The position numbers were made by a program, and so were the translations under genes. Source: an uncultured bacterium (GTDB lineage Bacteria; Pseudomonadota; Gammaproteobacteria; Xanthomonadales; Rhodanobacteraceae). Taken from it: a DNA stretch of 64,000 bases. The notes below the pieces were generated by a model that saw only the letters and a list, made by a program, of their open reading frames with translations, ran no database searches and was not told where the DNA came from. The stretch's first letter is position 1. Each line of letters opens with the position of its first letter. This document shows, in pieces, positions 49,457 to 64,000 of this stretch. The stretch spans positions 9,571 through 73,570 of the forward strand of contig CBJLOV010000001.1 in assembly GCA_966424745.1 (NCBI GenBank), written 5' to 3'.

Positions 49457-49621
49457 GGAATGCCGTGCCGATTTTCTAAGCATGCTGATTGCGGAGACTT
49501 TAGTAAGCCACGAATCCTTGCCCGAGGCAGCAATATTAAAATCCTTTAACTAGCTAGGCGCGCAACAATTCATAGCATCGCCGGTCACCATGCGTCGAAT
49601 CCGCCCGGCCCTTACCACGCC

Positions 49622-52600
49622 ATGAACCGGCTAGTCCAAATTGCGCTCGGTCGCCCCTACACGTTCGTCGTGCTGGGCATCCTGATCCTGATCATCGGCC
49701 CGCTCGCCGTCCTGCGCACGCCGATCGACATCTTCCCGAGCATCAACCTGCCGGTGATCAGCGTCGTATGGACCTACAACGGCCTCGCCCCGGACGACGT
49801 CTCCGACCGCATCGTCACCTATTTCGAGCGGCAGATGACGACGACGGTGAACGACATCGAGCACATCGAATCGCAATCACTGCCCGGTGTCGGCGTGGTC
49901 AAGGTGTTCTTCCAGCCCGACGTCAACGTCAACGCGGCGATGGCCCAGGTCACCGCGATCGCCCAGGTCGTGCTCAAGCGCCTGCCGCCCGGCATCACCC
50001 CGCCGCAGATCCTCAGCTACAGCGCCTCGAGCGTGCCGGTCCTGCAGTTGGCGCTGACGAGCAAGACGCTGACCGATCAGCAGCTGTTCGACATTTCCAA
50101 CAACTTCATCCGCCCGCAGCTCGCCCAGGTCGAGGGTGCTGCGATCCCCTCGCCCTACGGCGGCAAGAACCGACAGGTCGTCGTCGACCTCGACCCGAAC
50201 ACGCTGCGCTCGAAGGGCCTGTCGCCGTCCGACGTGACCACGGCGATCCTCGCGCAGAACCTGATCCTGCCCTCCGGCACGCAGAAGATCGGCACGTTCG
50301 AATACAACGTCACTCTCAACAGCAGCCCGAAGGAACTCGACGAGCTCAACAACCTGCCGATCAAGGCGGTTGGCGGCACCGTGATCAAGCTCAGCGACGT
50401 CGCCCACGTGCGCGACGGCTATTCGCCGCAGCAGAACCTCGTGCTGGTCAATGGCCAGCGCTCGGTGCTGACGACGATCCAGAAGAACGGCAAGGCGTCC
50501 ACGCTCGATATCGTCGCCCACGTGAAATCGCTGTTGCCGACAATCCAGGCCGGCGCGCCCAAGGGGCTCGACGTCGGCACCCTGCTCGACCAGTCCGTCT
50601 TCGTCAACGCCGCGGTGTCCGGCGTGATCCGCGAAGGCGTGATGGCCGCGGCGCTCGCCAGCCTGATGATCCTGCTCTTCCTCGGCAGCTGGCGTTCCTC
50701 GCTGATCATCGCCGTGTCGATTCCGCTGTCGATCCTGTGCTCGATCGCCGCGCTGTCCGCGATCGGCGAGACGATCAACGTGATGACCTTGGGCGGCCTC
50801 GCCCTCGCCGTCGGCATCCTCGTCGACAACGCCACGGTCACGATCGAAAGCATCAACTGGCACCTCGAACAGGGCAAGGAAGTGCCGATCGCGATCGTCG
50901 CCGGCGCGGATCAGATCGCGATACCTACGCTCGTCTCCACGCTGGCGATCTGCATCGTCTTCGTGCCGATGTTCTTCCTCTCCGGCGTCGCGCGCTATCT
51001 GTTCGTGCCGATGGCCGAGGCGGTCGTGTTCGCCATGATCGCCTCGTACATCCTGTCGTTCACGCTCGCGCTGACCCTGTCCAAATATCTGCTCAGGCCG
51101 CACGTCGATCCGCATCCGCCGACCGCCCACCCGCTCGAGGACGCGATGCGCGAAGACGCGACCGAGCACATGGCCGGGGGCTACGGCAACGTGCTGTCGC
51201 GCTTCCAGCGCCGCTTCGAGCGCGGCTTCGAAAGCGTGCGCGAGCATTACCGCGCCCTGCTCGAACTCGCGCTCGCGCGTCCGCGCGCGTTTTCGTTCGG
51301 CTTCCTCGGCGCCGTGTTCGCCTCGCTGCTGCTGATTCCATGGCTCGGCGAAAACTTTTTCCCCGCGGTCGATGCCGGCCAGATCAAGCTGCACATGCGT
51401 GCCCAGACCGGCACGCGCATCGAGGAGACGGCGCGCCTGGCAAGCGAGGTGGAGAAGACGATCCGCCGCGTGATTCCCGCGGACGAGCTCAAGAGCGTGG
51501 TCGACAACATCGGTCTGCCGGTCAGCGGCATCAACATCACCTATTCGAACTCGGCGCCGATCGGGCCGGCCGACGCGGACATCCTGATTTCGCTCGCCGA
51601 AGACCATCGTCCGAGCGACGAGTACATCGCCGAGCTGCGCGACACGCTGCCGCGCGAATTCCCGGGCGCGACGTTCTCGTTCCTGCCCGCGGACATCGTC
51701 AGCCAGATCCTCAACTTCGGCCTGCCGGCGCCGGTCGACGTGCAGGTCATCGGCTTCAAGCGCGAGGAAAACCGCGCCTACGCCGAAGAACTGTTGCACC
51801 GGTTCAAGCACATTCCCGGCATCGTCGACCTGCACCTGCAGCAGGCGTTCGACCAGCCCGAGCTGCGCGTCGACGTCGACCGCGTGCGCGCGCAGGAGAT
51901 GGGATTCAGCCAGCGCGACGTGGCCAACGATCTGCTCGTCTCCCTGTCCGGCAGCGGACAGGTCGCGCCGACGTTCTGGGTCAATCCGAAAAACCACGTG
52001 TCCTATCCGATCGTGGTGCAGACGCCGCAGTACAAGCTCGACAACCTGAGCAACCTGGAAAACATCCCGATCACCGGGCCGGGCAGCAAGCAGCGGCAGA
52101 TCCTCGCCGGCGTCGCCCGCGTCGCCCGCGGCCAGGGCAACGGCGTCGTCTCGCACTACGACGTGCAGCCCGCGCTCGACATCTTCGGCGCGGTGCAGGG
52201 ACGCGATCTCGGCGCGGTCGCGCGCGAAATCCAGGCGATCCTGCGCGACACGGCGAAAGACGTGCCGCCCGGCTCGACGGTCGCACTGCGCGGGCAGGTG
52301 CAGACGATGGAGGAATCCTATTCGAGCCTTCTGTTCGGCCTCGCCGGCGCGATCGTGCTGATCTATCTGCTGATCGTGGTGAATTTCCAGTCCTGGCTCG
52401 ACCCGTTCATCATCATCACCGCCCTGCCCGCAGCGATCGCCGGCATCGTCTGGATGCTGTTCCTGACCGGCACCACGCTGTCGGTGCCCGCGCTGACCGG
52501 TGCGATCATGTGCATGGGCGTGGCCACCGCCAACAGCGTGCTCGTGGTCAGCTTCGCGCGCGAACGCCTGGCGCAGGGCGCCGACGCGGTCACCGCCGCG

Positions 52601-52864
52601 CTCGATGCCGGCTTCATCCGTTTCCGCCCGGTGCTGATGACTGCGCTGGCGATGCTGATCGGCATGCTGCCGATGGCGCTGTCGATGGGCGAAGGCGGCG
52701 AGCAGAATGCGCCGCTCGGCCGCGCCGTGATCGGCGGCCTGATCTTCGCCACCTGCGCGACCTTGTTCTTCGTGCCCGCCGTGTTCGCGATCCTGCACGT
52801 AGGCGACCGCCGGGGCGAAACGTCCGACGTCACGTCGGGCGGCCCCCGCCTCCTCGAGGCCTGA
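49622..52864 (+). CDS. RND efflux permease, atypical proton-relay residues
   Basis: 1080 aa with 12-TM RND architecture. TM4 reads GILVDNATVTIES (D-N rather than D-D). The TM10 equivalent reads GVATANSVLVVSF, with no Lys at the AcrB K940-equivalent position. Confidence 0.85.
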   Translation: MNRLVQIALGRPYTFVVLGILILIIGPLAVLRTPIDIFPSINLPVISVVWTYNGLAPDDVSDRIVTYFERQMTTTVNDIEHIESQSLPGVGVVKVFFQPDVNVNAAMAQVTAIAQVVLKRLPPGITPPQILSYSASSVPVLQLALTSKTLTDQQLFDISNNFIRPQLAQVEGAAIPSPYGGKNRQVVVDLDPNTLRSKGLSPSDVTTAILAQNLILPSGTQKIGTFEYNVTLNSSPKELDELNNLPIKAVGGTVIKLSDVAHVRDGYSPQQNLVLVNGQRSVLTTIQKNGKASTLDIVAHVKSLLPTIQAGAPKGLDVGTLLDQSVFVNAAVSGVIREGVMAAALASLMILLFLGSWRSSLIIAVSIPLSILCSIAALSAIGETINVMTLGGLALAVGILVDNATVTIESINWHLEQGKEVPIAIVAGADQIAIPTLVSTLAICIVFVPMFFLSGVARYLFVPMAEAVVFAMIASYILSFTLALTLSKYLLRPHVDPHPPTAHPLEDAMREDATEHMAGGYGNVLSRFQRRFERGFESVREHYRALLELALARPRAFSFGFLGAVFASLLLIPWLGENFFPAVDAGQIKLHMRAQTGTRIEETARLASEVEKTIRRVIPADELKSVVDNIGLPVSGINITYSNSAPIGPADADILISLAEDHRPSDEYIAELRDTLPREFPGATFSFLPADIVSQILNFGLPAPVDVQVIGFKREENRAYAEELLHRFKHIPGIVDLHLQQAFDQPELRVDVDRVRAQEMGFSQRDVANDLLVSLSGSGQVAPTFWVNPKNHVSYPIVVQTPQYKLDNLSNLENIPITGPGSKQRQILAGVARVARGQGNGVVSHYDVQPALDIFGAVQGRDLGAVAREIQAILRDTAKDVPPGSTVALRGQVQTMEESYSSLLFGLAGAIVLIYLLIVVNFQSWLDPFIIITALPAAIAGIVWMLFLTGTTLSVPALTGAIMCMGVATANSVLVVSFARERLAQGADAVTAALDAGFIRFRPVLMTALAMLIGMLPMALSMGEGGEQNAPLGRAVIGGLIFATCATLFFVPAVFAILHVGDRRGETSDVTSGGPRLLEA

Positions 52865-52908
52865 TTTGCAGGGGCGCGCCCAGCCGCGCCGCCCACCAGA
52901 GAAGAGAT

Positions 52909-54132
52909 ATGTCCGTGACCGATTCCAAGCCCCGATCCTCGCCGCGCCGCCTGCGTCCACTCGGCATCGTCGCCCTCGTCGCCGCACTGGCGCTCGCCCT
53001 CGCCGGCATCGCCGCGCGCACGCACCGCGACCGCATGCTCAAGCAGAAGATCGAAACCGATGCCGTACCGACCGTGGCCGTGATCGCACCGGCGCAGGAC
53101 GAGGCGAAGCAGGAACTCGTACTGCCGAGCAACGTGCAGGCCTGGTACGACGCGCCGATCTACGCGCGCGTATCCGGTTATCTGAAGAAGTGGTACGTCG
53201 ACATCGGCGCCAAGGTGAAGGCCGGCGAAGTGCTCGCCGACATCGAAACGCCCGAACTCGACCAACAGCTGCAGCAGGCGCGCGCGGATCTCGCCACGGC
53301 CGCGGCGAAGGAAAAGCTCGCCGAAACGACGAACCAACGCTGGCAGAAAATGCTCGCCGCGACTTCGGTATCCAAGCAGGAGGCCGACGAGAAGAACAGC
53401 GATTTCGAGGCGCGCAGGGCCGAAGTCGCCGCGCAGCGCGCGAACGTCGATCGCCTGCAGGCGATGACCTCGTTCAAGCGCGTCGTCGCGCCGTTCGACG
53501 GTACCGTCACCGCGCGCAAGACCGACCTCGGCGCGCTGATCAATGCCGGCAGCGGCAGCGGGCCGGAACTGTTCCGCGTGGCCGACACGCACAAGCTGCG
53601 CGTCTACGTCGACGTGCCGCAGGCCTATGCCGAACGGATCGCGCCCGGCCTGCAGGCGAAGCTGCAGCTGCCCGAGCGGCCCGGACGCAGCTATCCCGCC
53701 GCTGTCGTCAGCACGGCGAATGCGATCAGCGAATCCTCGCGCACCCTGCTCGTCCAGCTCGAAGCCGACAACCAGGACGGCAAGCTGATCGCCGGTTCCT
53801 ATGCGGACGTGCATTTCGACCTGCCCGCCGCGGCCGGCGCGCTGCAGATACCGGTGACCGCGTTGATCTTCCGCCAGAACGGCCTGCGCGTGGCCACCGT
53901 CGGCAAGGACGACAAGGTGGCGATGAAGAGCGTCGAAATCGGCCGCGACTACGGCACCAAGGTCGAAATCGTCGCCGGGCTCGAGGCGAACGACCGCGTG
54001 ATCGACAGCCCGCAGGACTGGCTCGCCCAGGGCGACAAGGTCCTGCCCGCGCAGAGCGGGAAAGCCGGCGTCGCCGTCGCGGCGTCGGCCGCGGCAGCCA
54101 CGCCGCGCACCGGCGAAGGCGGCAAAGAATGA
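52909..54132 (+). CDS. RND efflux periplasmic adaptor (membrane fusion protein)
   Basis: It is the 3' part of ORF 49768..54132, from ATG 52909. It has an N-terminal TM and the blocks YARVSGYLKKWYVDIGAKVKAGEVLADIETPELD, a coiled coil, and VAPFDGTVTARK. Confidence 0.85.
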   Translation: MSVTDSKPRSSPRRLRPLGIVALVAALALALAGIAARTHRDRMLKQKIETDAVPTVAVIAPAQDEAKQELVLPSNVQAWYDAPIYARVSGYLKKWYVDIGAKVKAGEVLADIETPELDQQLQQARADLATAAAKEKLAETTNQRWQKMLAATSVSKQEADEKNSDFEARRAEVAAQRANVDRLQAMTSFKRVVAPFDGTVTARKTDLGALINAGSGSGPELFRVADTHKLRVYVDVPQAYAERIAPGLQAKLQLPERPGRSYPAAVVSTANAISESSRTLLVQLEADNQDGKLIAGSYADVHFDLPAAAGALQIPVTALIFRQNGLRVATVGKDDKVAMKSVEIGRDYGTKVEIVAGLEANDRVIDSPQDWLAQGDKVLPAQSGKAGVAVAASAAAATPRTGEGGKE

Positions 54133-55610
54133 ATCGCGCGGCGCCCGCCTTGCGCATGTTGACGGCCGCGATCGCAGTCCTCACCTTCGCCGGCTGCTCC
54201 TTCGCGCCCCCGTACCGGAAGCCCACCGCCGACGTCGCCGATACCTACAAGGAACTTGGGCCGTGGCGCGATGCCGCGCCGTCCGACCAGCTCGAACGCG
54301 GCGACTGGTGGCGCGATTACCGCAACGCGACGCTAGACGATCTCGAAGCCAAGGTCGATGCGGCGAATCCCGATCTCGCCGCGGCGGTCGACCGCTACGA
54401 CCAGGCGCGCGCCTATCTTGCGCAGGCGCAGAGCAATGCGTTTCCGGAGATCGACGCGGGCGGGCTCGTCACGCGCAACCGCCAGTCCGACCATCGTCCG
54501 CTACGCTCCGCCTCGCAGCCGGCCGAGTACGGCGACCATCTGGTCGGCGTCTCGATGGGCTACGAGCTCGACCTGTGGGGACGGGTACGCAACTCGATCG
54601 CCGCCGGCAAGGCGACCGCGCAGGCCGCGGCCGCCGATCTCGCTTCGGTGCGCCTTTCCCTGCACGCGGAGCTCGCCGACGACTACATCGTGCTGCGCGG
54701 TCTCGATGCGCAGGAAAAACTGCTCGTCGACACGGTGAACGCCTACGAACAGGCGCTGAAACTGACGCAGAACCGTTTCGAAGGCGGCGCCGCCTCCGGC
54801 CTCGACGTGGCCCGCGCGCAGAATCAACTCGACACGGCGCGCGCGCAGACCACCGACGTGCGCGCGCAGCGCGCCTTGTACGAACACGCCATCGCCAGCC
54901 TCGCCGGTGTGTCCGCGTCGAAGTTTTCACTGCCGCCCGAGGCTGCCGAGCTGGCGCTGCCGTCGATTCCCGTCGCCTTGCCCTCGACCCTGCTCGAGCG
55001 GCGGCCCGACGTCGCCGCCGCGGAACGCCGCGCCGCGGCGGCGAATTCGATGATCGGCGTCGCCCGCGCCGCATTCTTCCCGAGCATCAGCCTGACCGCG
55101 ACCGGCGGCTACGAAAACACCGGCAGCGCGGGATGGCTCACCGCGCCGAACGGTTTCTGGTCGATCGGCCCACGCTTTTCCTTCGCCCTGTTCGACGCGG
55201 GCAGGCGGCGCGCCGTCGACGAGCAGGCGCAAGCGGTGTTCAACGAAGCCGCGGATCGTTATCGCGGCACCGCGCTGGCCGCCTTCCGTCAGGTCGAGGA
55301 CAACCTGGCACTGCTCCATCTCCTCGACGAGGAAGCGAAGCAGGAAGGTGCGGCGGTCGCCTCGGCGCAGAATACGCTGCACCTCGCCATGGATCGCTAC
55401 GAGAACGGCGCGGTCAACTATCTCGACGTCGTCGCCTCGCAGACCGCGGCGCTGCAGGCACAGCGCACCCTGCTCGTGCTGCGCGACCGCCGGCTGCGCG
55501 CCAGCGTCGGGTTGATCCGCGCGCTCGGCGGAGGCTGGTCGACGCAGGCATTGCCGGACCATCCCGACGCGAAATTGGCGGCGACTCGTGCGTCCGCCAA
55601 AAACGAGTAA
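54129..55610 (+). CDS. RND efflux outer-membrane factor lipoprotein (NodT family)
   Basis: It is the 3' part of ORF 52866..55610. Its ATG overlaps the MFP stop (ATGA). It has the lipobox LTFAGCS, the motif GDWWRDYRN, and ALGGGW near the C-terminus. Confidence 0.9.
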   Translation: MNRAAPALRMLTAAIAVLTFAGCSFAPPYRKPTADVADTYKELGPWRDAAPSDQLERGDWWRDYRNATLDDLEAKVDAANPDLAAAVDRYDQARAYLAQAQSNAFPEIDAGGLVTRNRQSDHRPLRSASQPAEYGDHLVGVSMGYELDLWGRVRNSIAAGKATAQAAAADLASVRLSLHAELADDYIVLRGLDAQEKLLVDTVNAYEQALKLTQNRFEGGAASGLDVARAQNQLDTARAQTTDVRAQRALYEHAIASLAGVSASKFSLPPEAAELALPSIPVALPSTLLERRPDVAAAERRAAAANSMIGVARAAFFPSISLTATGGYENTGSAGWLTAPNGFWSIGPRFSFALFDAGRRRAVDEQAQAVFNEAADRYRGTALAAFRQVEDNLALLHLLDEEAKQEGAAVASAQNTLHLAMDRYENGAVNYLDVVASQTAALQAQRTLLVLRDRRLRASVGLIRALGGGWSTQALPDHPDAKLAATRASAKNE

Positions 55611-55718: not shown

Positions 55719-57098
55719 TCAGAACCGGAAACGCATGCCCACCATCGTGTTGACATTGGAATCGTGCAGGTAGCCGGCCGCCTGTCCACCGTCGACTTTG
55801 GAATACATCAGGCCGCCGTACACGTCGAAGAATTTGCCGAGGCGGTAATCGGCCATCGCGGAATAGGCGTTGTACGTGCCGCTGCACGTCGCCGCGCTCG
55901 CGTCGGAGCAGTGCTTCACGCCGTAGCTGTTCTGATCGTAGTGATAGAAGGCGCCGGTGATGTCGAAGTCGGGCGTGATCAGGTATTTCACCCCGCCCCA
56001 CGAAGCCTGAAGCACCTTGGCCTTCGGGAAAGCCGTGTTGTTGGTGAAGCTGACGAGATAGCCGCCGAGACCGGAAAACCCCGCCTCGAGCGGATTCGAG
56101 GGATTTTCGTATTTGATGTGCTCATAGCCCAGGCACAGCTTCCACGGCCCGGCCTTGTAGCTTCCGGTCAAGGTATATGAGGTATTGTCCGAAATCGTCG
56201 CGGCGAGCGAATCGTGGGGTGCCGCAGCCGCCTGCGCCGCGCTCAACGACGATGCGGCGATCGCGTCGTCCTTGTGACCGTAGATGCCGTCGATCGAGAA
56301 CCCGGCGTAGTCGAAACCGATGTTGCCCTGCCATGCCTTGCCGGGACTGCTGTCCGTCTTTCCGGGTTGATACAGCACGCCGGCGCGCCAGAAGTCCCGG
56401 GCATAAAAGTATTTGAGCGAACCGTCCAGGCGCGCGTCCTGCGTCGACCCCATGCCGGCCACCACGCCCGACAGCCCGATCACGGAGAACGCGTACGATC
56501 CGCCCATCGGATCGTACTTGAGGATGTTGTCGAGCAGCAGCGTGTTATTGCGGCCGACGGTCACGGTTCCCCAGGTCGGCGAACTCAGGCCCGCCACCGC
56601 CTGGCCGTTGAACAGCTGGCCGGCCCGCGAGCTGTCGCCGGCCGAGGTCTGACTGGCCAACGGTTTGCCGTTGTTGTGGGTGAGCGATTTGAGCGCGTCG
56701 GCGAGATGCCCGGACTGCGGATCGAAGCCCGTTTCCACGTCGAATACGAACGCGAGATCGTCGTTGACGGCTTCCTTGCCGCGCAATCCGAGCTTGGACT
56801 GGCTCAGCCCGTTCGGCGCGATCGAGGTAATCGGCTTGTTGCTCTTCCTGTCGATGAGGTACTGCACGCCGACGAACCAATCCTGGCTCAGCGGCGCGCC
56901 GTGCGATTGATGGGCGACGCCGATATCGAAAGCTCCGTACAGCGTGATCCCGTTCCAGGTCGTCCCGCCGTCCGCCGCCGCCGCGAACGGCACGCCCGCG
57001 AGCAAGACGCAGGTTCCGGCCAACAAGCGGCAGCGACCGATGCGAGCCGGGATCGGGCGAGAAGCAGCGCGGGCGGTACTTTCGAAGCGCAGGCGCAT
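55719..57098 (-). CDS. Gram-negative trimeric-type porin (paralog of 45688..47109)
   Basis: ATG 57096-57098 with GGAG upstream. Long signal region ...LLAGVPFAAAADG, N-terminal ITLYGAFDIGVAHQSHG, and C-terminal MVGMRFRF. It can be aligned by eye along its whole length with the other porin. Confidence 0.85.
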   Translation of the reverse strand: MRLRFESTARAASRPIPARIGRCRLLAGTCVLLAGVPFAAAADGGTTWNGITLYGAFDIGVAHQSHGAPLSQDWFVGVQYLIDRKSNKPITSIAPNGLSQSKLGLRGKEAVNDDLAFVFDVETGFDPQSGHLADALKSLTHNNGKPLASQTSAGDSSRAGQLFNGQAVAGLSSPTWGTVTVGRNNTLLLDNILKYDPMGGSYAFSVIGLSGVVAGMGSTQDARLDGSLKYFYARDFWRAGVLYQPGKTDSSPGKAWQGNIGFDYAGFSIDGIYGHKDDAIAASSLSAAQAAAAPHDSLAATISDNTSYTLTGSYKAGPWKLCLGYEHIKYENPSNPLEAGFSGLGGYLVSFTNNTAFPKAKVLQASWGGVKYLITPDFDITGAFYHYDQNSYGVKHCSDASAATCSGTYNAYSAMADYRLGKFFDVYGGLMYSKVDGGQAAGYLHDSNVNTMVGMRFRF

Positions 57099-57619
57099 AG
57101 GGACGACTCCGTGATCGTTGATCGGGACGGCGGAACGGCGGCACGGACGCGCCCCGAGCCGCGTCAGGCGCGTCGAGATCGTCCGCATATTCTTTTCGGT
57201 TTTTCCCCGCGGCCAGTTGACGATATCCATTCGATATAGTCAAGCAGACATATCGTCAGCGGGATCCCATCGCGAAACGGCGCTGCCGGGCCCGATTCCT
57301 GGTGTCGGCGAGTTCGCACTCTCAACGCTTCGGCGCGCGCCGAGCACCGTTCGGCGCGCGTGGAAGTATCTCTTGTAAGGAAATCCGCCTACGCTGCGTC
57401 TACTGGGTGAACGCAGCGCAACATCGATTTTTCTTGCCTGCGCCAGGGTTGGGACATACCGTAACGGAAGAAAAGGCGAAGACTCTGCACATCGGGTTCT
57501 TTTTGCGCGTCATATAACCTTTTCTTCACATCGATATGTCCTTTCAGCATCGCCGGCCCGCAGCGCACTTCGGCTGCGGCAACTGCGATTCACCATGTCA
57601 CATCCTCGAGGAGCACATC

Positions 57620-58012
57620 ATGTCGAACAAACTGATCAAACCGCTTTCCATCGCCATCGGCACGGGCCTCATCGGCTCGCGCGCGCTCGCCCAGATCGCC
57701 CAGGCGAATCCGACGTTCCATATGAACAGCCTCGTCGCCGGCTATACGCAATCCGCGATCGGCAACGAAGGCAAGTGCGGCGAAGGCAAGTGCGGCGCCA
57801 CCAAGGGCAAGAAGTGCACGGAAATGCCGGACAAGGCGGCGCAGGACAAGTGCATGACCGAAGCGCATGCGGACAAGGCGAAGGGCAAGGAAGGCTCCTG
57901 CTCGGCCGACAAGAAAGGCAAGGAAGGCTCCTGCAGCGCCGACAAGAAGGGCAAAGAGGGTTCCTGCTCGGCCGACAAGAAGGGCAAGGAAGGCTCCTGC
58001 AGCGGCCATTGA
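57620..58012 (+). CDS. Cys-repeat RiPP-type precursor, HvfA-like (EGKCG motifs plus tandem EGSCS units)
   Basis: ATG 57620 with GAGGAG upstream. Signal peptide [29 protein letters not shown]. Then [27 protein letters not shown], four copies of [11 protein letters not shown], and a final CSGH. A DUF692 gene follows 1 nt downstream. Confidence 0.75.
57881..58009 (+). repeat. four in-frame tandem 33-nt repeats (11-aa unit [11 protein letters not shown])
   Basis: Units at 57881-57913, 57914-57946, 57947-57979 and 57980-58009. The Ser codon after Cys alternates TCG/AGC/TCG/AGC. Confidence 0.9.
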
Positions 58013-58013
58013 G

Positions 58014-58883
58014 ATGACCGCTCGCGCCCCTCACGGCGCGGGACTCGGCCTGCGGCGGGCTCTTATCGGCCCGCTGCAGGACGCTCTCGAACAGAGCGGC
58101 CCCGACGCCCCGATCGACTTCTTCGAAGTCGCGCCGGAAAATTGGATCAACGTCGGCGGCAAGCTGGGCAAGACCTTCCGTTCGTTCACCGAGCGGTTTC
58201 CTTTCGTCTGCCACGGCCTGTCGCTCTCGCTCGGCGGCCCCGCGCCGCTCGACGAGACGCTGCTGCACAAGATCCGCCGCCTGCTCGACGAGCACGGCGT
58301 CGCCGTCTACAGCGAGCATCTGTCGTACTGCTCGGACGACGGCCATCTCTACGATCTGCTGCCGATCCCGTTCACCGAAGCGGCCGTGGACTATGTCGCC
58401 GCGCGCATCCGCCGCACGCAGGACATCATCGGCAGGCGCATCGCCATCGAGAACGTCTCGTCCTACGCCACGCCCGGCCGGGAAATGAGCGAAGCCGATT
58501 TCACCAACGCCGTGCTGCGGGCGGCCGACTGCCATCTGCTGCTCGACGTCAACAACGTCTACGTCAACAGCGTCAACCATCGCTACGACGCCAAGGCGTT
58601 CATCGACGCGATGCCCGCCGAGCGCGTCGCCTATCTGCACATCGCCGGCCACTACAACGAGGCACCCGACCTGATCGTGGACAGCCATGCGGCGGCCGTG
58701 ATCGACCCGGTCTGGGACCTGCTCGACCACACCTACGCGCACTGCGGGGTGAAGCCGACCCTGCTCGAACGCGACTTCCGCTTTCCGCCGCTGGCCGAAC
58801 TGCTCGGCGAACTCGATCACATCCGCGCGATCCAAACGCCGCGCCTCGGACAGAGCCATGAACACCGCCGCCTCCGCGCCTGA
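58014..58883 (+). CDS. DUF692/UPF0276 family protein (MbnB-like multinuclear non-heme iron oxidase, MNIO)
   Basis: ATG 58014, in frame with ORF 57867..58883. GAGLGLRR...[11 protein letters not shown]...HGLSLSLGG...YSEHLSY...IENVSSY...[11 protein letters not shown] are typical DUF692 TIM-barrel blocks. Confidence 0.85.
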
Positions 58884-59640
58884 CCTGTCCGCGACGCAGG
58901 CGCTGCAATACCGCTTCACCGCGCATCTGCGCGACCCCGAGGGCATGCCCGTTCCCGCCGGCATCGAAGACCGGCGCATGGGCGTGTATCGCGAGCTCGT
59001 CTTCGCGAACATGGAGAGTTTCATTTCCTCCAATTTCCCCGTCATCCGCAGCCTGTACGACGATGCGGAATGGGAAGTCATGGCGCGCGAGTTCCTGCGC
59101 GAACACCGCTGCCATACGCCGCTGTTCCCCGAGTTCGGCCGCGAATTCCTGCGCTGGCTCGAGACGCGGCAGGAACAGGGACGCGGCGATCCGCCGTTCC
59201 TGCTCGAACTCGCGCACTACGAATGGGCCGAACTGGCGCTGTCGCTCGACGAGGCCGGCATCGACGCCGTTGCCCATGACCCCGACGGCGATCCCCTGAA
59301 CGGCGTACCGGCGATGTCGCCGCTTGCCTGCGTCCTCGCCTACCGTTTTCCGGTGCATTGCATCTCGGCGGACTATCGCCCGGCCGAGCCGCCCGCCGAA
59401 CCCACCTTGCTCTTGCTCGTACGCGGCCGCGACGACACGGTGCGCTTCCATGAAATCAACGCGCTCAGCGCGATGCTGATCGAGCGCCTGCAGCAGAACA
59501 CGCAGGCCAGCGGCAGCGAATGCCTCGATGCGCTGCTCGCCGCTTACGATCCCGCCGTCGCAGCCAATCTGCGCCCGGCCGGCGAAGCGGTGCTGGGCGA
59601 ACTGAAAGAACACGAAGCCATACTCGGCACTCGTCGGTAA
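58858..59640 (+). CDS. DUF2063 family protein (MbnC/BufC/HvfC-like MNIO partner)
   Basis: 260 aa. [12 protein letters not shown]...[23 protein letters not shown]...[15 protein letters not shown] matches the DUF2063 N-terminal domain pattern. It overlaps the DUF692 gene by 26 nt. Confidence 0.75.
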
Positions 59641-59809
59641 AAATACTTCGCCCCTCGTTCCGGCCGGCTCTTGGCCGGAGTCCCGGGGCTCCGGGACTTC
59701 GAACAAGGATTGACAACGGAGAACACGGACAACCCCGAGAGAGAATAGAAAACGAGATCAGCGCCCGGCCTCCGTCAGCGCCCCGTGTTTTCGGCCTGGG
59801 GAAGTATTT
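59641..59809. repeat. 169-bp inverted-repeat element (MITE/REP-like), immediately after the DUF2063 gene stop
   Basis: Termini are AAATACTTCGCCCC (59641-59654) and GGGGAAGTATTT (59798-59809). Internal hairpins are CCGGCC..GGCCGG and AGTCCCGG-GGCT-CCGGGACT, and GAGAACACGG pairs with CCGTGTTTTC. Confidence 0.5.
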
Positions 59810-59892
59810 CTACCTAGATTCGACGCGAATCCAATGGAAACGGGCGAATCCGACTGCTTTTCTTCGTGTTCCCGTGGTTCAATCTCCAAGCT

Positions 59893-60071
59893 CTCAGAGC
59901 CTGTTCACGATCTACAGCGGCACGTCGAAGTCGTCCACAAATATTCGAGCGCCGCCTTGTTCGCAGAGTTCGATTCATCGAACCCGCGCTGTTCGGCAAC
60001 CGAAAGCAAAGGCCGGGCTCGATGAATCGAGCCCCTGTGCAGCATTCCCGAGATCGTGAACAGGCTCTCAG
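59893..60071. repeat. about 180-bp nested long-range inverted repeat
   Basis: The outer stem is 18 bp and perfect: AGAGCCTGTTCACGATCT (59896-59913) with AGATCGTGAACAGGCTCT (60051-60068). The inner stem is GTTCGATTCATCGAACCCG (59968-59986) with CGGGCTCGATGAATCGAGC (60014-60032), 17 of 19 complementary. The apical stem is TTCGG-CAA-CCGAA. Confidence 0.6.
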
Positions 60072-60201
60072 GCTTATCCGGTTCGTTCCAACGCAGATGC
60101 CACGGGGCGAGTTTGTGCGGAAGCGACACCGGTGTTTTTTCGTTGTAAGGATCGACCGCTACGTTCGTCCAATCGACAACACAAAGCATCGAGGAGTCGC
60201 C

Positions 60202-60855
60202 GTGCAAAACCTCATCTCGCTCTGGCAAACGCTCACCGCCCGCCTGCGCGGGGTCGGCGAATCGCTGCCGCCGCTCGTGCTGCGCCTGATCATGGGTTGG
60301 GAATTCTGGGAATCCGGCTGGGAAAAATATTCGGGTGACAACTGGTTCGCCGACATCCAGTCCCGATTCCCGTTTCCGTTCAGCGCGATCCCCGCCGACA
60401 TCAGCTGGACGTTGGCGACCTATCTCGAGATCGGCGGGGCCGTCCTGCTCCTGCTCGGCCTGTTCACGCGCTTTGCCGCATACAGCCTCATCGTACTGAC
60501 TTTCGTCGCCACGGCCGCGGTGCATTGGCCCGACATGATTTCGATGTGGAGCGATCTCGCCAAAGGCTACGCGATCACCGACATGGGACACGGCAACTTC
60601 AAACTGCCGCTGCTGTTCGTCGTCATGCTGTTGCCGATCGTCTTCTCGGGGCCCGGCAAGATCAGCCTCGACCACTTGCTCTCGCGCGCATTGCGTGCCG
60701 GCCCGGCCGCGCTGCCGTTGAACGATGCCTATGCCTGGGCCTTGGCCAGTCTTGCGCTCGCCATCCCGTTCCTGCTGCTGACACCGCTGTTCGGCGCAAC
60801 CCTGCTGCTCGTCGCGGCAGCGCTGTTCGTGTTCGGCCGGTTTGCACGGACGTGA
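60202..60855 (+). CDS. DoxX family membrane protein
   Basis: GTG 60202 with GAGGAG five nt upstream. LVLRLIMGWEFWESGWEKY...LEIGGAVLLLLGLFTRFAAYSLIVLTFVA is a typical DoxX pattern. The ORF-track 5' extension (59866-60201) is Arg-rich and covers the inverted repeats. Confidence 0.75.
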   Translation: MQNLISLWQTLTARLRGVGESLPPLVLRLIMGWEFWESGWEKYSGDNWFADIQSRFPFPFSAIPADISWTLATYLEIGGAVLLLLGLFTRFAAYSLIVLTFVATAAVHWPDMISMWSDLAKGYAITDMGHGNFKLPLLFVVMLLPIVFSGPGKISLDHLLSRALRAGPAALPLNDAYAWALASLALAIPFLLLTPLFGATLLLVAAALFVFGRFART

Positions 60856-60862
60856 GGCCGCC

Positions 60863-61324
60863 ATGTCCACGCTCCCGTCCGACACTGCGCTGCGCAACCA
60901 TCCGCTGCGCGAAGGAATACGTCGCAATGCGGTCGCGCTGATCAGCCTCGCCGTCGCCCTGTTCGGCACCAGCTACAACACTTGGCGCAACCAGACCACC
61001 GAGGCGCACCGCAACGTGCGCGAAGCGTCGTTCAAGCTGCTCGAAGCCTGCGGCGAACTGCAGCAGCTCGTGCAGCACCGCTACTACGGCGGCGATCATT
61101 CGCCGATGAACTGGATCGCGGGCTGGGGCAAGGCGACCTTGATCCGCGACATGGCGCCGCTGGTATCGCCGGCCGTGCAGGCGCGCGCGGACAAACTGTT
61201 CGCGGTATGGAAGGAAAACGCCGGCGAACTCGACAGCGGCCGCGGCGATTCGGAAAAGGCCGTCGAATCCGCCCTCGATGAAGTCGCCGACGCGACGCGC
61301 GCGGAACTCCTGGCGCTGCGCTGA
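60863..61324 (+). CDS. hypothetical single-TM protein
   Basis: ATG 60863, 7 nt after the doxX stop. 153 aa with one TM (AVALISLAVALFGTSY) and a helical C-terminal domain. I recognise no family. Confidence 0.55.
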   Translation: MSTLPSDTALRNHPLREGIRRNAVALISLAVALFGTSYNTWRNQTTEAHRNVREASFKLLEACGELQQLVQHRYYGGDHSPMNWIAGWGKATLIRDMAPLVSPAVQARADKLFAVWKENAGELDSGRGDSEKAVESALDEVADATRAELLALR

Positions 61325-61396
61325 TCGCGGCGACACCGCGTCCTGGTCTCGCCGCGTCGGATTGAGATCGCCGACGCGGGCACGTATGCTGCGGGC

Positions 61397-62020
61397 ATGT
61401 CTGCAGCGCACACCAACAAATACGCCGAGCGGTTCCGCGGCTTCCTTCCGGTCGTCGTCGACGTCGAAACCGGCGGCTTCGACAGCGAGCGCGACGCGCT
61501 GCTCGAGATCGCCGCGGTCGTCGTGCGCATGGACGAGAACGGCATCGTCCATGCGGACGCGCCCGTCTCGACGCACGTCGTGCCGTTCCCCGGCGCGAAC
61601 ATCGATCCGCGCGCGCTCGAAGTCACCGGCATCGATCCGACCCATCCGTTCCGCGCCGCGATCGAGGAGCGCGAGGCGCTCGATCTGATCTTCCGGCCGA
61701 TCCGCCGCGCCCTGCGCGAGTACGAATGCTCGCGCGCGATCCTCGTCGGCCACAACGCCTCGTTCGACCTCGGTTTTCTCAACGCGGCGATCCGGCGCAC
61801 CGGCTACAAGCGCAGCCCGTTCCACCTGTTCAGTTGCTTCGATACGGCGACGCTCGGCGGCCTCGCCTATGGCCAGACCGTGCTCAGCCGCGCCGTGCAG
61901 GCCGCCGGGTTCGACTGGAACGAATCCGAAGCGCATTCCGCTGTCTACGACGCCGAGCGCACCGCGCTGCTGTTCTGCGAGATCGTCAATCGCTGGAAGA
62001 CCCTGAGCGAAGCCTGCTGA
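61397..62020 (+). CDS. rnt: ribonuclease T
   Basis: DEDDh exonuclease motifs: [29 protein letters not shown]. The [10 protein letters not shown]-terminus is typical of RNase T. Confidence 0.9.
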
Positions 62021-62104
62021 GCGGCGCGGTCTGCTGCACCCGGGCGGTAGGTATTGCTAACATCGGCACCGGCACACTGTTTCTTTTGCACGGAGTTCCA
62101 AGCC

Positions 62105-62722
62105 ATGACCCTGTCGCGAGAGCCGCGCCTGCACCCGGTCGCCATCGCCAACCTGCGCCCGACCCAGATCACCGTCGGCATGCGCGAGGTCGACGCCAAG
62201 CGCAAGAACTGGAAAAACCATCCGGACTACAAGAAGCCCGACTTCCTCGGCAAGCACATGATCCCGGTGGTCTGGGGGCCGAAAGAAAACTACTACGTCA
62301 TCGACCATCACCACCTTTCCCTCGCCCTGCACCGCGAGGGCGTGAAGGACATCGCGATCACGGTCGTTGCCGATCTGCGCAGGCTCGAAGCGGACGCGTT
62401 CTGGATCTATCTCGACAATCGCGGCTGGATGCACCCGTTCGATGAAAAAGGACGGCGCTGCGGCTACGCGGACATCCCGAAGAAGATCACCGAACTCGTC
62501 GACGATCCGTTCCGCAGCCTTGCCGGCGAGCTGCGCCGCATGGGCGGATTCGCCAAGGACACCACGCCGTTCAGCGAATTTCTCTGGGCCGACTTCCTGC
62601 GCCGCAGGATCAAGCGCAAGCAGGTCGACGCGGATTTCGACAAGTCGCTGGAAAAAGCGCTGAAGCTGGCGAAAAGCGGCGACGCCGACTATCTGCCGGG
62701 CTGGTGCGGACCGATCGATTGA
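62105..62722 (+). CDS. ParB-like nuclease-domain protein (ParB/Srx fold)
   Basis: ATG 62105. IANLRPTQITVGMREV...YYVIDHHHLSLAL is the pattern of the stand-alone ParB-like family. Confidence 0.6.
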   Translation: MTLSREPRLHPVAIANLRPTQITVGMREVDAKRKNWKNHPDYKKPDFLGKHMIPVVWGPKENYYVIDHHHLSLALHREGVKDIAITVVADLRRLEADAFWIYLDNRGWMHPFDEKGRRCGYADIPKKITELVDDPFRSLAGELRRMGGFAKDTTPFSEFLWADFLRRRIKRKQVDADFDKSLEKALKLAKSGDADYLPGWCGPID

Positions 62723-63051: not shown

Positions 63052-63261
63052 CGAGTGGTTTCCTTGAAGATCGGTCATTCCCTGCCCGCCGCGCCGCGGT
63101 CGAAGCGGCGCGATGATAGGCGGCCGACCGTTAAGGTTTGACGTCGGCGGCCGCACGGTTCGAAACTGAACGAATTCCGCACCGCCCGCGGCGGCCATGT
63201 CCGCGCCCCACCGCCGTCCGCGTTGTGGAACTTGCAGCACCCACCCATCCGGGAGAATTCC

Positions 63262-64000
63262 ATGAACGTTGCAGGGTCCACCCATCGCACTTCCCGCGCT
63301 CGCGTCTGGCTTGCGCGCTCGCTCGTCGCCCTCGCCGCCGCGACCGCGCTGACCGCCGTCACCACGCCCACGGCACACGCCGGCGTGTTCGTCTCGGTCA
63401 ACTTCGCGCCGCCGGCGCTGCCGGTCTACGTGCAGCCGGCGATTCCGGGCCCGGGCTATATCTGGACCCCCGGCTACTGGGCCTATGACCCCGTCACCGG
63501 CTACTACTGGGTGCCGGGCACCTGGGTGCTGCCGCCGTACACGGGCGCACTGTGGACGCCGGGCTACTGGGGCTGGTCGAGCGGCGTCTACCTCTTCCAC
63601 CCGGGCTACTGGGGCCTGCACGTCGGCTACTACGGCGGCATCAACTACGGCTTCGGCTATGTCGGCGCCGGCTATGTCGGCGGCTATTGGGGCCCGCGCG
63701 GGTTCTATTACAACCGCGAGGTCAACCACATCACCAACGTCAACATCACCAACGTCTACAACAAGACGGTGATCAACAACACCAATGTGACGCGGGTGAG
63801 CTACAACGGCCCCGGCGGCGCGAACGCACAGCCGAACGCCGAGGAGATGCGCTACGCGAACGAGCGGCACACGCCGGCCATCGCCGCGCAGGTGCAGCAC
63901 CAGACGCTGGCCAGCCAGAACCAGGCGATGCGCGCATCGGTCAATCACGGCACGCCGGCCGTCGCCGCGACGGCGCGCCCCGGCGCATTCGCTGCAAGCG
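63262..64000 (+). CDS. YXWGXW repeat-containing secreted protein (5' partial, runs off the window)
   Basis: It is absent from the ORF track because there is no stop codon before the window end. ATG 63262 with GGGAGA upstream. Signal peptide ...LTAVTTPTAHA. Repeats are PGYWAY, GYYWVPGTW, PGYWGW, PGYWGL and GGYWG. I read the frame through to 64000 without a stop. Confidence 0.75.
   Translation, partial: MNVAGSTHRTSRARVWLARSLVALAAATALTAVTTPTAHAGVFVSVNFAPPALPVYVQPAIPGPGYIWTPGYWAYDPVTGYYWVPGTWVLPPYTGALWTPGYWGWSSGVYLFHPGYWGLHVGYYGGINYGFGYVGAGYVGGYWGPRGFYYNREVNHITNVNITNVYNKTVINNTNVTRVSYNGPGGANAQPNAEEMRYANERHTPAIAAQVQHQTLASQNQAMRASVNHGTPAVAATARPGAFAAS

What the first reader, a model, noticed from the sequence alone, without database searches (positions are those of the whole stretch)
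57620..61324. MNIO-type RiPP metallophore-like cluster with an unusual EGKCG plus tandem EGSCS precursor
Seen directly:
- A 130-aa ORF has a Sec-type signal peptide, followed by [12 protein letters not shown], a C-x11-C linker ([15 protein letters not shown]), four tandem [11 protein letters not shown] units and a C-terminal CSGH.
- It has 8 Cys in total, six of them in an EG[KS]C[GS] context.
- One nucleotide downstream begins a DUF692/UPF0276 protein (MbnB-like multinuclear non-heme iron oxidase).
- That gene overlaps by 26 nt a DUF2063 protein, which is an MbnC/BufC/HvfC-like partner.
- A DoxX membrane protein and a 153-aa single-TM orphan follow on the same strand.

Established knowledge: DUF692 enzymes with such partners oxidatively rewrite Cys residues of ribosomal precursors into copper-binding oxazolone/thioamide or thiooxazole groups. 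Known examples are the methanobactins, the bufferins, and the EGKCG-repeat protein HvfA of Haemophilus. DoxX genes commonly accompany them.

Inference: this is a periplasmic or secreted metal-binding RiPP or modified-protein system. The EGSCS tandem module has Ser in place of Lys/Gly around the Cys. I am not aware that this precursor architecture has been characterised. The chemistry at those sites and the metal specificity are open questions. The adjacent two-component system, RND pumps and porins fit a metal-stress context.
Basis: partly seen in the sequence, partly recalled or inferred. Interest (0 to 1): 0.75.

Follow-up and report, generated by a model that had tools for sequence, protein, structure and literature searches.

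The report
Copper-binding thiooxazole peptide gene cluster
This is an ordinary member of the widespread HvfABCX ("oxazolin"/captophorin) gene clusters, in which an iron enzyme turns cysteines of a secreted peptide into copper-binding rings. Its Ser-Cys-Ser repeat motif is common in Rudaea-like soil bacteria but has not been tested in the laboratory.

Summary
A 130-aa Sec-type precursor (57620-58012) carries EGKCG x2, a C-x11-C linker, EGSCS x4 and a C-terminal CSGH. HvfB (MNIO), HvfC (DUF2063 partner), HvfX (DoxX) and a 153-aa membrane-anchored protein follow on the same strand.

HvfB, HvfC and HvfX all pass NCBIfam's curated cut-offs. The precursor does not pass the HvfA model (21.8 vs 95 bits).

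The class is well described (oxazolin, fontiphorin, gonophorin, bufferins = "captophorins"; more than 24,000 such clusters catalogued). Its chemistry is now assigned as 5-thiooxazole, not oxazolone/thioamide.

The architecture is not rare. There are 662 homologues, and EGSCS is the commonest Cys context among the best 120. Gonophorin's precursor NgoA already combines EGSCG with EGKCG, and all of its Cys are modified. Only Ser at the +1 position is biochemically untested.

The claimed "metal-stress context" is weak: both RND pumps look like multidrug types and are not consistently linked to the cluster.

Extras found:
- The 153-aa orphan is a conserved, lineage-specific fifth gene, predicted to be a four-helix bundle.
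- An IS5-derived MITE sits between hvfC and doxX.

Verdict: new member of a known kind, of modest interest.

The parts
57608..57613 (+). Ribosome-binding site GAGGAG, 6 nt before the precursor's ATG
   Evidence: Read directly from the sequence.
57620..58012 (+). Precursor gene (hvfA-like), 130 aa: signal peptide, leader, EGKCG x2, C-x11-C linker, EGSCS x4, CSGH end
   Evidence: ORF and translation. It has 662 homologues. The HvfA model NF050188 scores only 21.8 bits against a cut-off of 95. It is predicted disordered (mean pLDDT 46.6).
57620..57706 (+). Sec-type signal peptide (aa 1-29). Predicted cleavage is after AQA, as in HvfA (..TAQA|E) and FonA (..AAQA|S)
   Evidence: Alignment with FonA, HvfA and NgoA. 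HvfA cleavage between residues 24 and 25 is reported in PMC11252979. No signal-peptide predictor was available, so this is assessed by eye.
57716..57745 (+). Leader motif F-x4-L-x-AGY (aa 33-42), shared with FonA (VFQASDLGAGY); probable recognition region for HvfC
   Evidence: F33 and Y42 are invariant. The motif is present in 111 of 120 homologues. Its role in recognition is inferred.
57767..57796 (+). [10 protein letters not shown] pair (C53, C58): canonical Lys-Cys 5-thiooxazole sites
   Evidence: This motif is modified in HvfA, FonA and NgoA (PMC13097082).
57815..57853 (+). C-x11-C linker (C66 in KKCT, C78 in DKCM); non-motif Cys, probably an unmodified disulfide pair
   Evidence: By analogy, HvfA C38/C43 (PCV/DKCV) stay unmodified and form a disulfide (PMC11252979). 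In 81 of 120 relatives an EF-hand-like loop is present instead of this C-x11-C linker.
57881..58009 (+). Four tandem KGKEGSCS(ADK) units (C94, C105, C116, C127), ending in CSGH
   Evidence: TRF finds a 33-nt period x 3.7 and a 66-nt period x 1.9. The Ser after Cys is coded TCG, AGC, TCG, AGC. EGSCS occurs 310 times in the 120 best homologues.
58014..58883 (+). hvfB: multinuclear non-haem iron oxidase (MNIO, DUF692), 289 aa
   Evidence: NF003818 scores 427.8 bits (cut-off 360) and PF05114 gives E 8.6e-103. It is 64% identical to FonB. R14/R15 and D254/F255 correspond to FonB R15/R16 and D249/F250.
58858..59640 (+). hvfC: DUF2063 / NGO1945_C partner protein (PME1), 260 aa; overlaps hvfB by 26 nt
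   Evidence: NF050145 scores 287.2 bits (cut-off 142); PF09836 and PF22106 both match.
59893..60071 (.). MITE derived from an IS5-family insertion sequence, with 21-nt terminal inverted repeats, inside the hvfC-doxX spacer
   Evidence: Inverted repeat. Fold of -98 kcal/mol, z = -9.45. The exact arm is found in 74 metagenome stretches, with partners 100-250 nt or about 850 nt away. The ~850-nt versions encode a DDE_Tnp_1 transposase. The element is absent from L001.
60202..60855 (+). hvfX: DoxX-family membrane protein, 217 aa (GTG start; RBS GAGGAG 60191-60196)
   Evidence: NF050144 scores 134 bits (cut-off 80). PF07681 matches. The start was chosen by comparison with L001.
60863..61324 (+). 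Lineage-specific fifth gene: 153-aa protein with an N-terminal membrane helix and a four-helix bundle; function unknown
   Evidence: No Pfam, NCBIfam or PDB match. It has 138 homologues; all those that carry a taxon name are Rhodanobacteraceae (Rudaea, Dokdonella) or only broadly classified Proteobacteria/Pseudomonadota. It lies directly after doxX or hvfC in the window, L001, L008, L164, L165 and L166, but is unlinked in L007 and L009. The model has pLDDT 89 and only generic helical-bundle matches.

Best explanation
This is a chromosomal HvfABCX-type ('captophorin'/oxazolin-class) RiPP operon of a Rudaea-like gammaproteobacterium.

Proposed mechanism:
1. The 130-aa precursor is made with a Sec signal peptide.
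2. Before export, the HvfB-HvfC heterodimer binds it, probably through the conserved F-x4-L-x-AGY leader.
3. The iron enzyme HvfB uses O2 to oxidise each motif cysteine by four electrons (-4 Da) into a 5-thiooxazole. The ring is built from the Cys and the carbonyl of the preceding residue.
4. I expect the two EGKCG cysteines and the four EGSCS cysteines to be modified (six rings). The two linker cysteines (KKCT, DKCM) should stay unmodified and form a disulfide after export.
5. The product is exported, the signal peptide is cut after AQA, and the disordered, Lys-rich, thiooxazole-studded peptide sequesters Cu(I) in the periplasm.
6. DoxX/HvfX and the 153-aa membrane-anchored helical protein are accessory membrane components of unknown role.

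Shown here: gene identities, family memberships, conservation of the enzyme's specificity residues, synteny, and the distribution of the motif.
Inferred from published relatives: the chemistry, which Cys are modified, copper binding and the order of events.
For: Enzymes:
- HvfB, HvfC and HvfX all pass curated NCBIfam cut-offs, with matching Pfam domains.
- HvfB is 64% identical to FonB, 52% to NgoB and 49% to HvfB.
- It keeps FonB's catalytic Asp (D254), the Phe next to it (F255) and the Arg-Arg pair (R14/R15). These are the residues shown to govern Lys-Cys-type substrate selection (PMC13097082, section 14).

Chemistry of the class:
- All characterised MNIO-PME1 clusters install 5-thiooxazoles and bind Cu (PMC13097082; bioRxiv 10.64898/2026.06.05.730506 and 10.64898/2026.07.17.739211).

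Ser tolerance:
- NgoA carries three [EQ]GSCG sites (two EGSCG, one QGSCG) and four EGKCG sites, and all 7 Cys are modified. Ser before the Cys is therefore accepted.
- FonBC needs a small residue after the Cys. In 626 E/D-x-x-C-x sites of the 120 closest homologues, that residue is S, G or A in 624.
- The Ser after the Cys is coded alternately by TCG and AGC, and by TCT/TCC in relatives. Ser is thus kept despite codon turnover.

Linker cysteines:
- The two non-motif Cys of HvfA remain unmodified and form a disulfide (PMC11252979).

Conservation:
- The precursor-MNIO-HvfC core is conserved just upstream of rnt in all eight related loci inspected; DoxX follows it in seven of them, and in L008 the orphan takes its place.
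- The precursor is predicted disordered, as expected for a peptide substrate.
Against: - The precursor misses the HvfA equivalog model (21.8 vs 95 bits).
- No experiment has tested Ser at the position after the Cys. In FonBC assays every substitution tried there except Ala blocked processing, and the window's enzyme has the same Phe at the relevant site. Processing of the EGSCS sites is therefore plausible but unproven.
- Nothing in the window shows copper regulation. No CopR/CueR-type regulator or copper pump is adjacent, and the neighbouring two-component system reaches the heavy-metal family only below cut-off.
- The MITE-containing 561-nt spacer may uncouple doxX and the fifth gene from hvfABC in this particular strain.
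- The signal peptide was judged by eye only.
Confidence: 0.7

Rival explanations
1. Only the EGKCG pair is an MNIO substrate. The four EGSCS cysteines stay as ordinary thiols, which bind Cu(I) or other soft metals directly or form disulfides. The product would then be a hybrid with two thiooxazoles and a Cys-thiolate tail.
For: FonBC, the closest characterised enzyme (64% identical), was blocked by every tested substitution after the Cys except Ala. The window's HvfB shows no compensating change at F255 or R14/R15. HvfA demonstrates that non-motif Cys can stay unmodified in the same peptide.
Against: NgoBC modifies all three [EQ]GSCG sites of NgoA. Ser is nearly as small as Ala. The residue after the Cys is restricted to S/G/A in 624 of 626 sites in the family, which matches the enzyme's known requirement. 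The E-G-x-C register and the unit spacing are conserved like those of genuine substrates.
Confidence: 0.18
2. The EGSCS module receives a different or additional modification, or confers a different metal preference. For example, the flanking Ser hydroxyls might take part in ring chemistry or in coordinating harder metals, or the module might functionally replace the Ca-binding EF-hand found in most relatives. This would make the sub-family a distinct product class.
For: Ser on both sides of the Cys is strictly conserved across hundreds of homologues despite codon turnover. EGSCS is confined to a narrow clade: 3 of the 80 species-representative loci inspected. The clade has its own extra conserved gene, the 153-aa protein. 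The C-terminus is nearly always C-S-(G/S)-H.
Against: No extra modifying enzyme is present in the operon. The fifth gene is a small helical bundle with no catalytic signature. The MNIO is a typical HvfB with canonical specificity residues. All characterised MNIO-PME1 systems give the same 5-thiooxazole.
Confidence: 0.08
3. The small ORF is a low-complexity periplasmic protein unrelated to the MNIO, and the adjacency is coincidental; or the ORF is not expressed.
For: JGI annotates its homologues only as 'uncharacterized low-complexity protein'. No Pfam family matches it.
Against: There is a strong RBS and a 1-nt gap to hvfB. A precursor gene lies directly upstream of the MNIO gene in every related locus inspected. 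It shares the leader and the EGKCG pair with the proven substrate FonA. Differences between the Cys-motif codons of the five precursor genes compared are almost all synonymous.
Confidence: 0.03

Closest known systems
Gonophorin system NgoABC(X) of Neisseria gonorrhoeae (PMC13097082)
   Same: The precursor has a signal peptide and mixes Ser-Cys ([EQ]GSCG x3: two EGSCG, one QGSCG) and Lys-Cys (EGKCG x4) repeats. All 7 Cys are converted to 5-thiooxazole and the product binds 1-2 Cu. It has an MNIO, a DUF2063 partner and DoxX. The MNIO is 52% identical to the window's.
   Different: NgoA has Gly, not Ser, after every Cys. Its Ser-Cys repeats come before the Lys-Cys repeats rather than after them. 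It has no F-x4-L-x-AGY leader, no C-x11-C linker and no CSGH end.
Fontiphorin system FonABC of Fontimonas thermophila (PMC13097082)
   Same: It has the closest characterised enzyme (64% identity), with identical R-R and D-F specificity residues. It shares the AQA cleavage site, the F-x4-L-x-AGY leader and a first EGKCG-type pair ([10 protein letters not shown] in FonA).
   Different: FonA has seven EGKCG/EAKCG sites and no Ser-Cys-Ser units. The published fon cluster lists no DoxX gene. FonBC did not accept the substitutions tested after the Cys, other than Ala.
Oxazolin system HvfABCX of Haemophilus influenzae (PMC11252979; reassigned to 5-thiooxazole in bioRxiv 10.64898/2026.06.05.730506)
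   Same: It has the same four gene families. Its precursor also has 8 Cys, six in repeats (modified, -4 Da each) and two outside the motif that form a disulfide. It carries a Sec signal peptide and binds Cu(I).
   Different: Its repeats are three [11 protein letters not shown] units only. HvfB is 49% identical and has a ~23-residue insertion. The window's precursor fails the HvfA equivalog model. No virulence context applies here.
Buf_EGKCG|EF-hand chimeric precursors (PMC12452194)
   Same: They belong to the same protein family as the window's precursor: 81 of its 120 closest homologues carry an EF-hand-like loop between the EGKCG pair and the EGSCS units. They also share the A-B-C-DoxX gene set next to rnt.
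   Different: The window's branch (about 36 of 120) has a C-x11-C linker instead of the EF-hand. The paper describes these proteins as a short EGKCG domain plus EF-hands and does not mention the C-terminal EGSCS units.
Bufferins (Buf1/DUF2282, Buf2) and methanobactins
   Same: These are MNIO-made, Cys-derived copper-binding heterocycles. Bufferins also use a Sec signal peptide, a DUF2063 partner and DoxX.
   Different: The BufB model scores 261.6, below its cut-off of 310. The MbnB model scores 48.7 against 325. The precursor has no DUF2282 match. Methanobactins carry oxazolone/thioamide groups, use a leader peptide rather than a signal peptide, and use an MbnC partner.

Membership tests
HvfABCX / captophorin (MNIO-PME1, Lys-Cys group) gene cluster | MNIO enzyme of the HvfB type (PF05114) with the catalytic Asp and metal-ligand residues | tested here: met
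   NF003818 scores 427.8 bits against a cut-off of 360, and PF05114 gives E 8.6e-103. D254 (FonB D249) is invariant. So are H67, H102, E146, D178, N181, H209/H213, D223, H225 and E252 in the alignment with FonB, HvfB and NgoB. Assigning these as iron ligands is an inference from MbnB/HvfB literature.
HvfABCX / captophorin (MNIO-PME1, Lys-Cys group) gene cluster | Type-1 partner protein (DUF2063 N-domain plus NGO1945/HvfC C-domain) encoded next to the MNIO | tested here: met
   NF050145 scores 287.2 bits against a cut-off of 142. PF09836 and PF22106 both match. The gene overlaps hvfB by 26 nt.
HvfABCX / captophorin (MNIO-PME1, Lys-Cys group) gene cluster | Cys-rich precursor with a Sec signal peptide immediately upstream of the MNIO gene, containing repeated E-G-K-C-G units | tested here: met
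   The precursor ends 1 nt before hvfB and has two EGKCG units plus four EGSCS units. Its N-terminal region aligns with the signal peptides of FonA and HvfA, including the AQA site. The signal peptide was not run through a predictor.
HvfABCX / captophorin (MNIO-PME1, Lys-Cys group) gene cluster | Enzyme residues that select Lys-Cys-type substrates (FonB R15, R16, F250) | tested here: met
   R14, R15 and F255 of the window's HvfB align with them. Their role is described in PMC13097082, section 14.
HvfABCX / captophorin (MNIO-PME1, Lys-Cys group) gene cluster | Product: 5-thiooxazole at each motif Cys (-4 Da, ~305 nm absorbance) and Cu(I) binding | not testable with these tools
   This needs co-expression, MS, UV, NMR and metal titration.
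HvfA equivalog (NCBIfam NF050188, oxazolin precursor proper) | Whole-protein score at or above the curated cut-off of 95 bits | tested here: not met
   It scores 21.8 bits, E 2.2e-4. The precursor is therefore a relative, not an HvfA equivalog.
HvfX (DoxX-type) accessory protein | NF050144 score at or above 80 bits, and encoded in the cluster | tested here: met
   It scores 134 bits with the 217-aa reading. It is on the same strand but 561 nt after hvfC, with a MITE in between.
Bufferin (Buf1) system | DUF2282 precursor and BufB-type MNIO | tested here: not met
   The precursor has no DUF2282 match even at E <= 10. BufB model NF050167 scores 261.6 bits against a cut-off of 310.
Methanobactin system | MbnB-type MNIO with MbnC and an MbnA precursor | tested here: not met
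   TIGR04159 scores 48.7 bits against a cut-off of 325. The partner is the DUF2063 type, not MbnC.
Buf_EGKCG|EF-hand chimeric precursors | EF-hand domain(s) fused to the EGKCG segment | tested here: not met
   The window's precursor has no EF-hand match at E <= 10, whereas its relative P0057 matches EF-hand_5 at 1.9e-7. The window has a C-x11-C linker at that place.

The most novel reading that the evidence does not exclude
The strictly conserved Ser-Cys-Ser units, the C-terminal Cys-Ser-Gly-His and the clade-specific fifth gene might mark a distinct captophorin sub-class. Its thiooxazoles, flanked by hydroxyls, would have a different metal preference or undergo a further reaction. The C-x11-C linker would have taken over the role of the Ca-binding EF-hand found in most relatives.
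Probability: 0.1. Interest if true: 0.6.

Novelty: new member of a known kind. Interest (0 to 1): 0.3.

Why it matters
The main value is as a correctly filed example. It shows that automated models already name three of the five genes, while the precursor remains 'hypothetical' or 'low-complexity'.

The one point of real use to specialists concerns substrate rules. A large natural family places Ser, rather than Gly or Ala, after the modified Cys. That would extend the substrate rule derived from FonBC, and it offers a ready-made test set (EGSCS, EKSCS, DASCS, EGNCA variants) for how thiooxazole-forming MNIOs choose cysteines.

Two smaller leads for evolutionary or functional work:
- the clade-specific fifth gene;
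- the swap between an EF-hand and a C-x11-C linker within one precursor family.

None of this changes the current picture of the class.

Tried and rejected
- Rfam on the whole window (gathering threshold) and on 57200-60300 (E <= 1) found nothing relevant. There is no known riboswitch or sRNA in the 390-nt leader or in the hvfC-doxX spacer.
- The promoter/terminator consensus scan of 57200-61450 gave counts no higher than shuffled controls. No transcript boundaries could be set.
- Aligning the upstream region with L001 showed a conserved block (about 57371-57450), but I could not assign it to a regulator.
- For the 153-aa protein, the PDB sequence search, Pfam at E <= 10 and Foldseek against PDB gave only generic helical bundles. 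No function could be proposed.
- Structure prediction of the precursor gave a disordered model. It says nothing about metal sites.
- The idea that the neighbouring RND pumps and two-component system indicate metal stress was tested and dropped (loci).
- I first took the hairpin in the spacer for a possible structured RNA. The metagenome scan showed it is the inverted-repeat pair of an IS5-family element.
I also could not read Dataset S2 of PMC13097082 to see how its authors binned EGSCS precursors.

Full report
**1. What is in the sequence**

- The precursor gene has a strong ribosome-binding site (GAGGAG, 57608-57613) before the ATG at 57620. The ORF ends at 58012.
- Its 130-aa product has an N-terminal signal-peptide-like segment ending in AQA (aa 27-29).
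- A leader follows, containing F-x4-L-x-AGY (aa 33-42).
- Next come [10 protein letters not shown] (C53, C58) and a linker with two further cysteines eleven residues apart (C66 in KKCT, C78 in DKCM).
- Four KGKEGSCS units follow (C94, C105, C116, C127), and the protein ends in CSGH.
- At the DNA level the units form a 33-nt x 3.7 array, or better a 66-nt x 1.9 array.
- The serine after the cysteine is coded TCG, AGC, TCG, AGC. These two codon families cannot interconvert by a single synonymous step, so the residue has been kept while its codon changed.

Downstream genes:

- hvfB starts one base after the precursor's stop (58014-58883).
- hvfC starts at ATG 58858, overlapping hvfB by 26 nt, and ends at 59640.
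- doxX is best read from GTG 60202 (RBS GAGGAG 60191-60196) to 60855. This gives 217 aa, as in the syntenic locus L001.
- The 153-aa ORF runs from 60863 to 61324, beginning 7 nt after the doxX stop.

**2. Family assignments**

| Gene product | Model | Score (bits) | Cut-off (bits) |
|---|---|---|---|
| HvfB | NF003818, HvfB family MNIO maturase | 427.8 | 360 |
| HvfC | NF050145, HvfC family | 287.2 | 142 |
| DoxX (217-aa reading) | NF050144, HvfX family | 134 | 80 |
| Precursor | NF050188, HvfA | 21.8 | 95 |
| HvfB | BufB (bufferin maturase) | 261.6 | 310 |
| HvfB | MbnB (methanobactin) | 48.7 | 325 |

- Pfam agrees: MbnB_TglH_ChrH for HvfB; DUF2063 plus NGO1945_C for HvfC; DoxX for HvfX.
- The three enzyme/accessory genes are therefore ordinary members of the Hvf-type system. 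The precursor is a relative of HvfA, not an equivalog.
- The exact proteins are already in public collections, on an 85-kb NCBI/ENA contig.
- The 90% cluster of the MNIO includes Rudaea cellulosilytica WP_033409791.1, already named 'HvfB family MNIO-type RiPP peptide maturase'.

**3. What is known about the class**

- Oxazolin (HvfA, H. influenzae) has six -4 Da modifications on the EGKCG cysteines. Its two non-motif cysteines, C38 and C43, form a disulfide (PMC11252979).
- The Mitchell laboratory characterised fontiphorin (FonABC) and gonophorin (NgoABC) and re-examined oxazolin. All three carry 5-thiooxazoles. The authors counted more than 24,000 MNIO-PME1 loci, 1,351 of them in Lysobacterales, and proposed the name captophorins (PMC13097082).
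- The Rosenzweig laboratory has also reassigned oxazolin to 5-thiooxazole and described the active diiron cofactor.
- A genomic survey named the precursor family Buf_EGKCG/oxazolin (about 2,000 proteins). It noted a second type fused to EF-hands (PMC12452194).

**4. How unusual is the precursor?**

It is not unusual.

- A search of the 5.8-billion-cluster protein collection returned 662 homologues at E <= 1e-3.
- In the best 120, EGSCS is the commonest cysteine context (310 occurrences, against 168 for EGKCG). 116 of the 120 have one to five E[GKA]SC[SG] units. The C-terminus is almost always C-S-(G/S)-H. The F-x4-L-x-x-GY leader is present in 111.
- 81 of the 120 carry an EF-hand-like loop between the EGKCG pair and the EGSCS units. 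About 36 carry the C-x11-C linker, like the window. The window therefore represents the minority branch of a family whose EF-hand branch has already been noticed in print.
EGSCG occurs 111 times in many gammaproteobacterial groups, including Woeseia, Dokdonella, Mizugakiibacter and Lysobacterales. EGSCS occurs in only three loci: a Rhodanobacteraceae MAG, a Rudaea sp. MAG and one unclassified Gammaproteobacteria MAG.
- So a Ser before the Cys is common. A Ser after the Cys marks a narrow clade that is nevertheless abundant in metagenomes.
- No paper in the searchable library contains 'EGSCS' in this sense.

**5. Are the EGSCS cysteines likely substrates?**

Evidence in favour:

- NgoA has three [EQ]GSCG sites (two EGSCG, one QGSCG) and four EGKCG sites, and all seven Cys were modified and alkylated (SI Fig. 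S18 of PMC13097082).
- FonBC tolerated Ala, Arg and Thr before the Cys.
- FonBC required a small residue after the Cys. In the family studied here that position is S, G or A in 624 of 626 motif sites. The two linker cysteines, by contrast, are followed by T, M, S, V, L or I.
- The window's HvfB is 64% identical to FonB. It keeps R14/R15, D254 and F255, the counterparts of the FonB residues shown to set substrate preference.

Evidence against:

- In FonBC assays all substitutions tried after the Cys, except Ala, blocked processing. Ser does not appear among the variants I could find in the supplement.

My reading is that six cysteines are converted and the C66/C78 pair is left as a disulfide, as in HvfA. 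This is an inference, and I give the rival (only the EGKCG pair modified) about 0.18.

**6. Context**

- The precursor-MNIO-HvfC core sits just upstream of rnt (RNase T) in all eight related loci examined. DoxX follows in seven of them; in L008 the orphan takes its place. It is therefore a stable chromosomal operon.
- The upstream block is a two-component system, an RND pump (permease, adaptor, outer-membrane factor) and a divergently transcribed porin. It is shared with L001 and partly with L006, but absent from L005 and from the JGI locus.
- That RND pump, and a second one at 30097-36167, match multidrug-type models best, all below cut-off.
- The sensor kinase and regulator reach the heavy-metal family models at 155 and 194 bits, below the cut-offs of 292 and 279.
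- I therefore do not regard the neighbourhood as evidence of a metal-stress island.

**7. The 153-aa 'orphan'**

- It has no Pfam, NCBIfam or PDB sequence match.
- It is a real, conserved protein. It has 138 homologues; all those that carry a taxon name are Rudaea, Dokdonella or other Rhodanobacteraceae, or only broadly classified Proteobacteria/Pseudomonadota. An almost invariant YNTWRN-x3-E-x-HRN-x-R motif follows the membrane helix.
- The AlphaFold model is confident (pLDDT 89). It shows one long helix that includes the membrane segment, packed with three more helices into a bundle. Foldseek finds only designed bundles and sensor-domain-like bundles at E > 0.05.
- In the window and five related loci it lies directly after doxX, and twice its start overlaps the doxX stop by 4 nt. 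In L008 it follows hvfC in place of doxX.
- More distant homologues (about 55% identity or less; L007, L009) are unlinked to the operon.
- It is therefore a lineage-specific fifth gene of this operon. Its function is unknown.

**8. The spacer between hvfC and doxX**

- The spacer is 117 nt in L001 and 561 nt in the window.
- Within the extra DNA, 59893-60071 is bounded by 21-nt inverted repeats and folds at -98 kcal/mol, z = -9.45.
- The exact 21-mer occurs in 74 metagenome contig stretches. Many have an inverted partner 100-250 nt away and several have one about 800-950 nt away.
- The ~850-nt versions encode a DDE_Tnp_1 transposase (E 7e-28) whose last codons run into the repeat.
- The window thus carries a non-autonomous derivative (MITE) of an IS5-family element inside the operon.
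- Whether it interrupts co-transcription of doxX and the fifth gene is unknown.

**9. Verdict**

However, the cluster belongs to a thoroughly catalogued and now biochemically understood class, and the precursor architecture is the norm for its clade.

What remains open is narrow:
- whether Ser after the Cys is accepted by the enzyme;
- what the clade-specific fifth gene does.

I score interest at 0.3 and file it as a new member of a known kind.

Noticed in passing
window 59893-60071: A 179-nt MITE with 21-nt terminal inverted repeats (CTCAGAGCCTGTTCACGATCT) lies between hvfC and doxX. The same repeats bound ~850-nt IS5-family elements encoding a DDE transposase in many metagenomes. The element is absent from the syntenic Rudaea locus L001.
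   Followed up: yes
window 59645-59892 and 60072-60128: This is the rest of the extra ~300 nt in the hvfC-doxX spacer relative to L001. It has further inverted repeats (for example 59670-59686 / 59691-59707). Its origin is unexplained.
   Followed up: no
window 57371-57450 (upstream of the precursor gene): This block of the 390-nt leader region is almost identical in L001 (..CTGTAAGGAAAT.. and TGAACGCAGCGCAACATCGATTTnTCTTGCCTGCGCCA), while the flanking DNA has diverged. It may be a promoter or operator. There is no Rfam match and no consensus sigma-70 promoter.
   Followed up: partly
precursor family (P0001-P0120; window 57815-57853): Within one precursor family, the segment between the EGKCG pair and the EGSCS units is either an EF-hand-like Ca-binding loop (81 of 120) or a C-x11-C linker (about 36 of 120). 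The two align over ..K-x-x-x-x-P-x-x..EA-x-AH, which suggests that one replaced the other.
   Followed up: partly
window 57881-58009; L001, L005, L006, L008 precursor genes: The Ser after each repeat Cys is encoded by both TCN and AGC codons, within one gene and between relatives. The last unit always uses AGC (CSGH/CSSH end). This points to selection for Ser at that position.
   Followed up: partly
window 45688-47214 (-) and 55719-57230 (-): Two Porin_4 genes of about 505 aa lie 8.5 kb apart, flanking the two-component system and RND operon. The second is transcribed divergently from the precursor gene.
   Followed up: no
window 49550-55610 (+): This RND operon has the unusual gene order permease - adaptor - outer-membrane factor. 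The permease scores below every NCBIfam cut-off, with matches split between the multidrug and CusA/CzcA models.
   Followed up: partly
window 62054-62722 and 63142-63999: A ParB-like nuclease (ParBc_2) gene and a WXXGXW-repeat protein gene follow rnt. They are present in the closest relatives (L001, L166) but not in more distant ones, like the 153-aa gene.
   Followed up: no
L008 4008-6462: In this related 1.9-Mb contig the homologue of the 153-aa protein directly follows hvfC and there is no doxX. The precursor there has a single EGSCS unit plus an EF-hand.
   Followed up: partly
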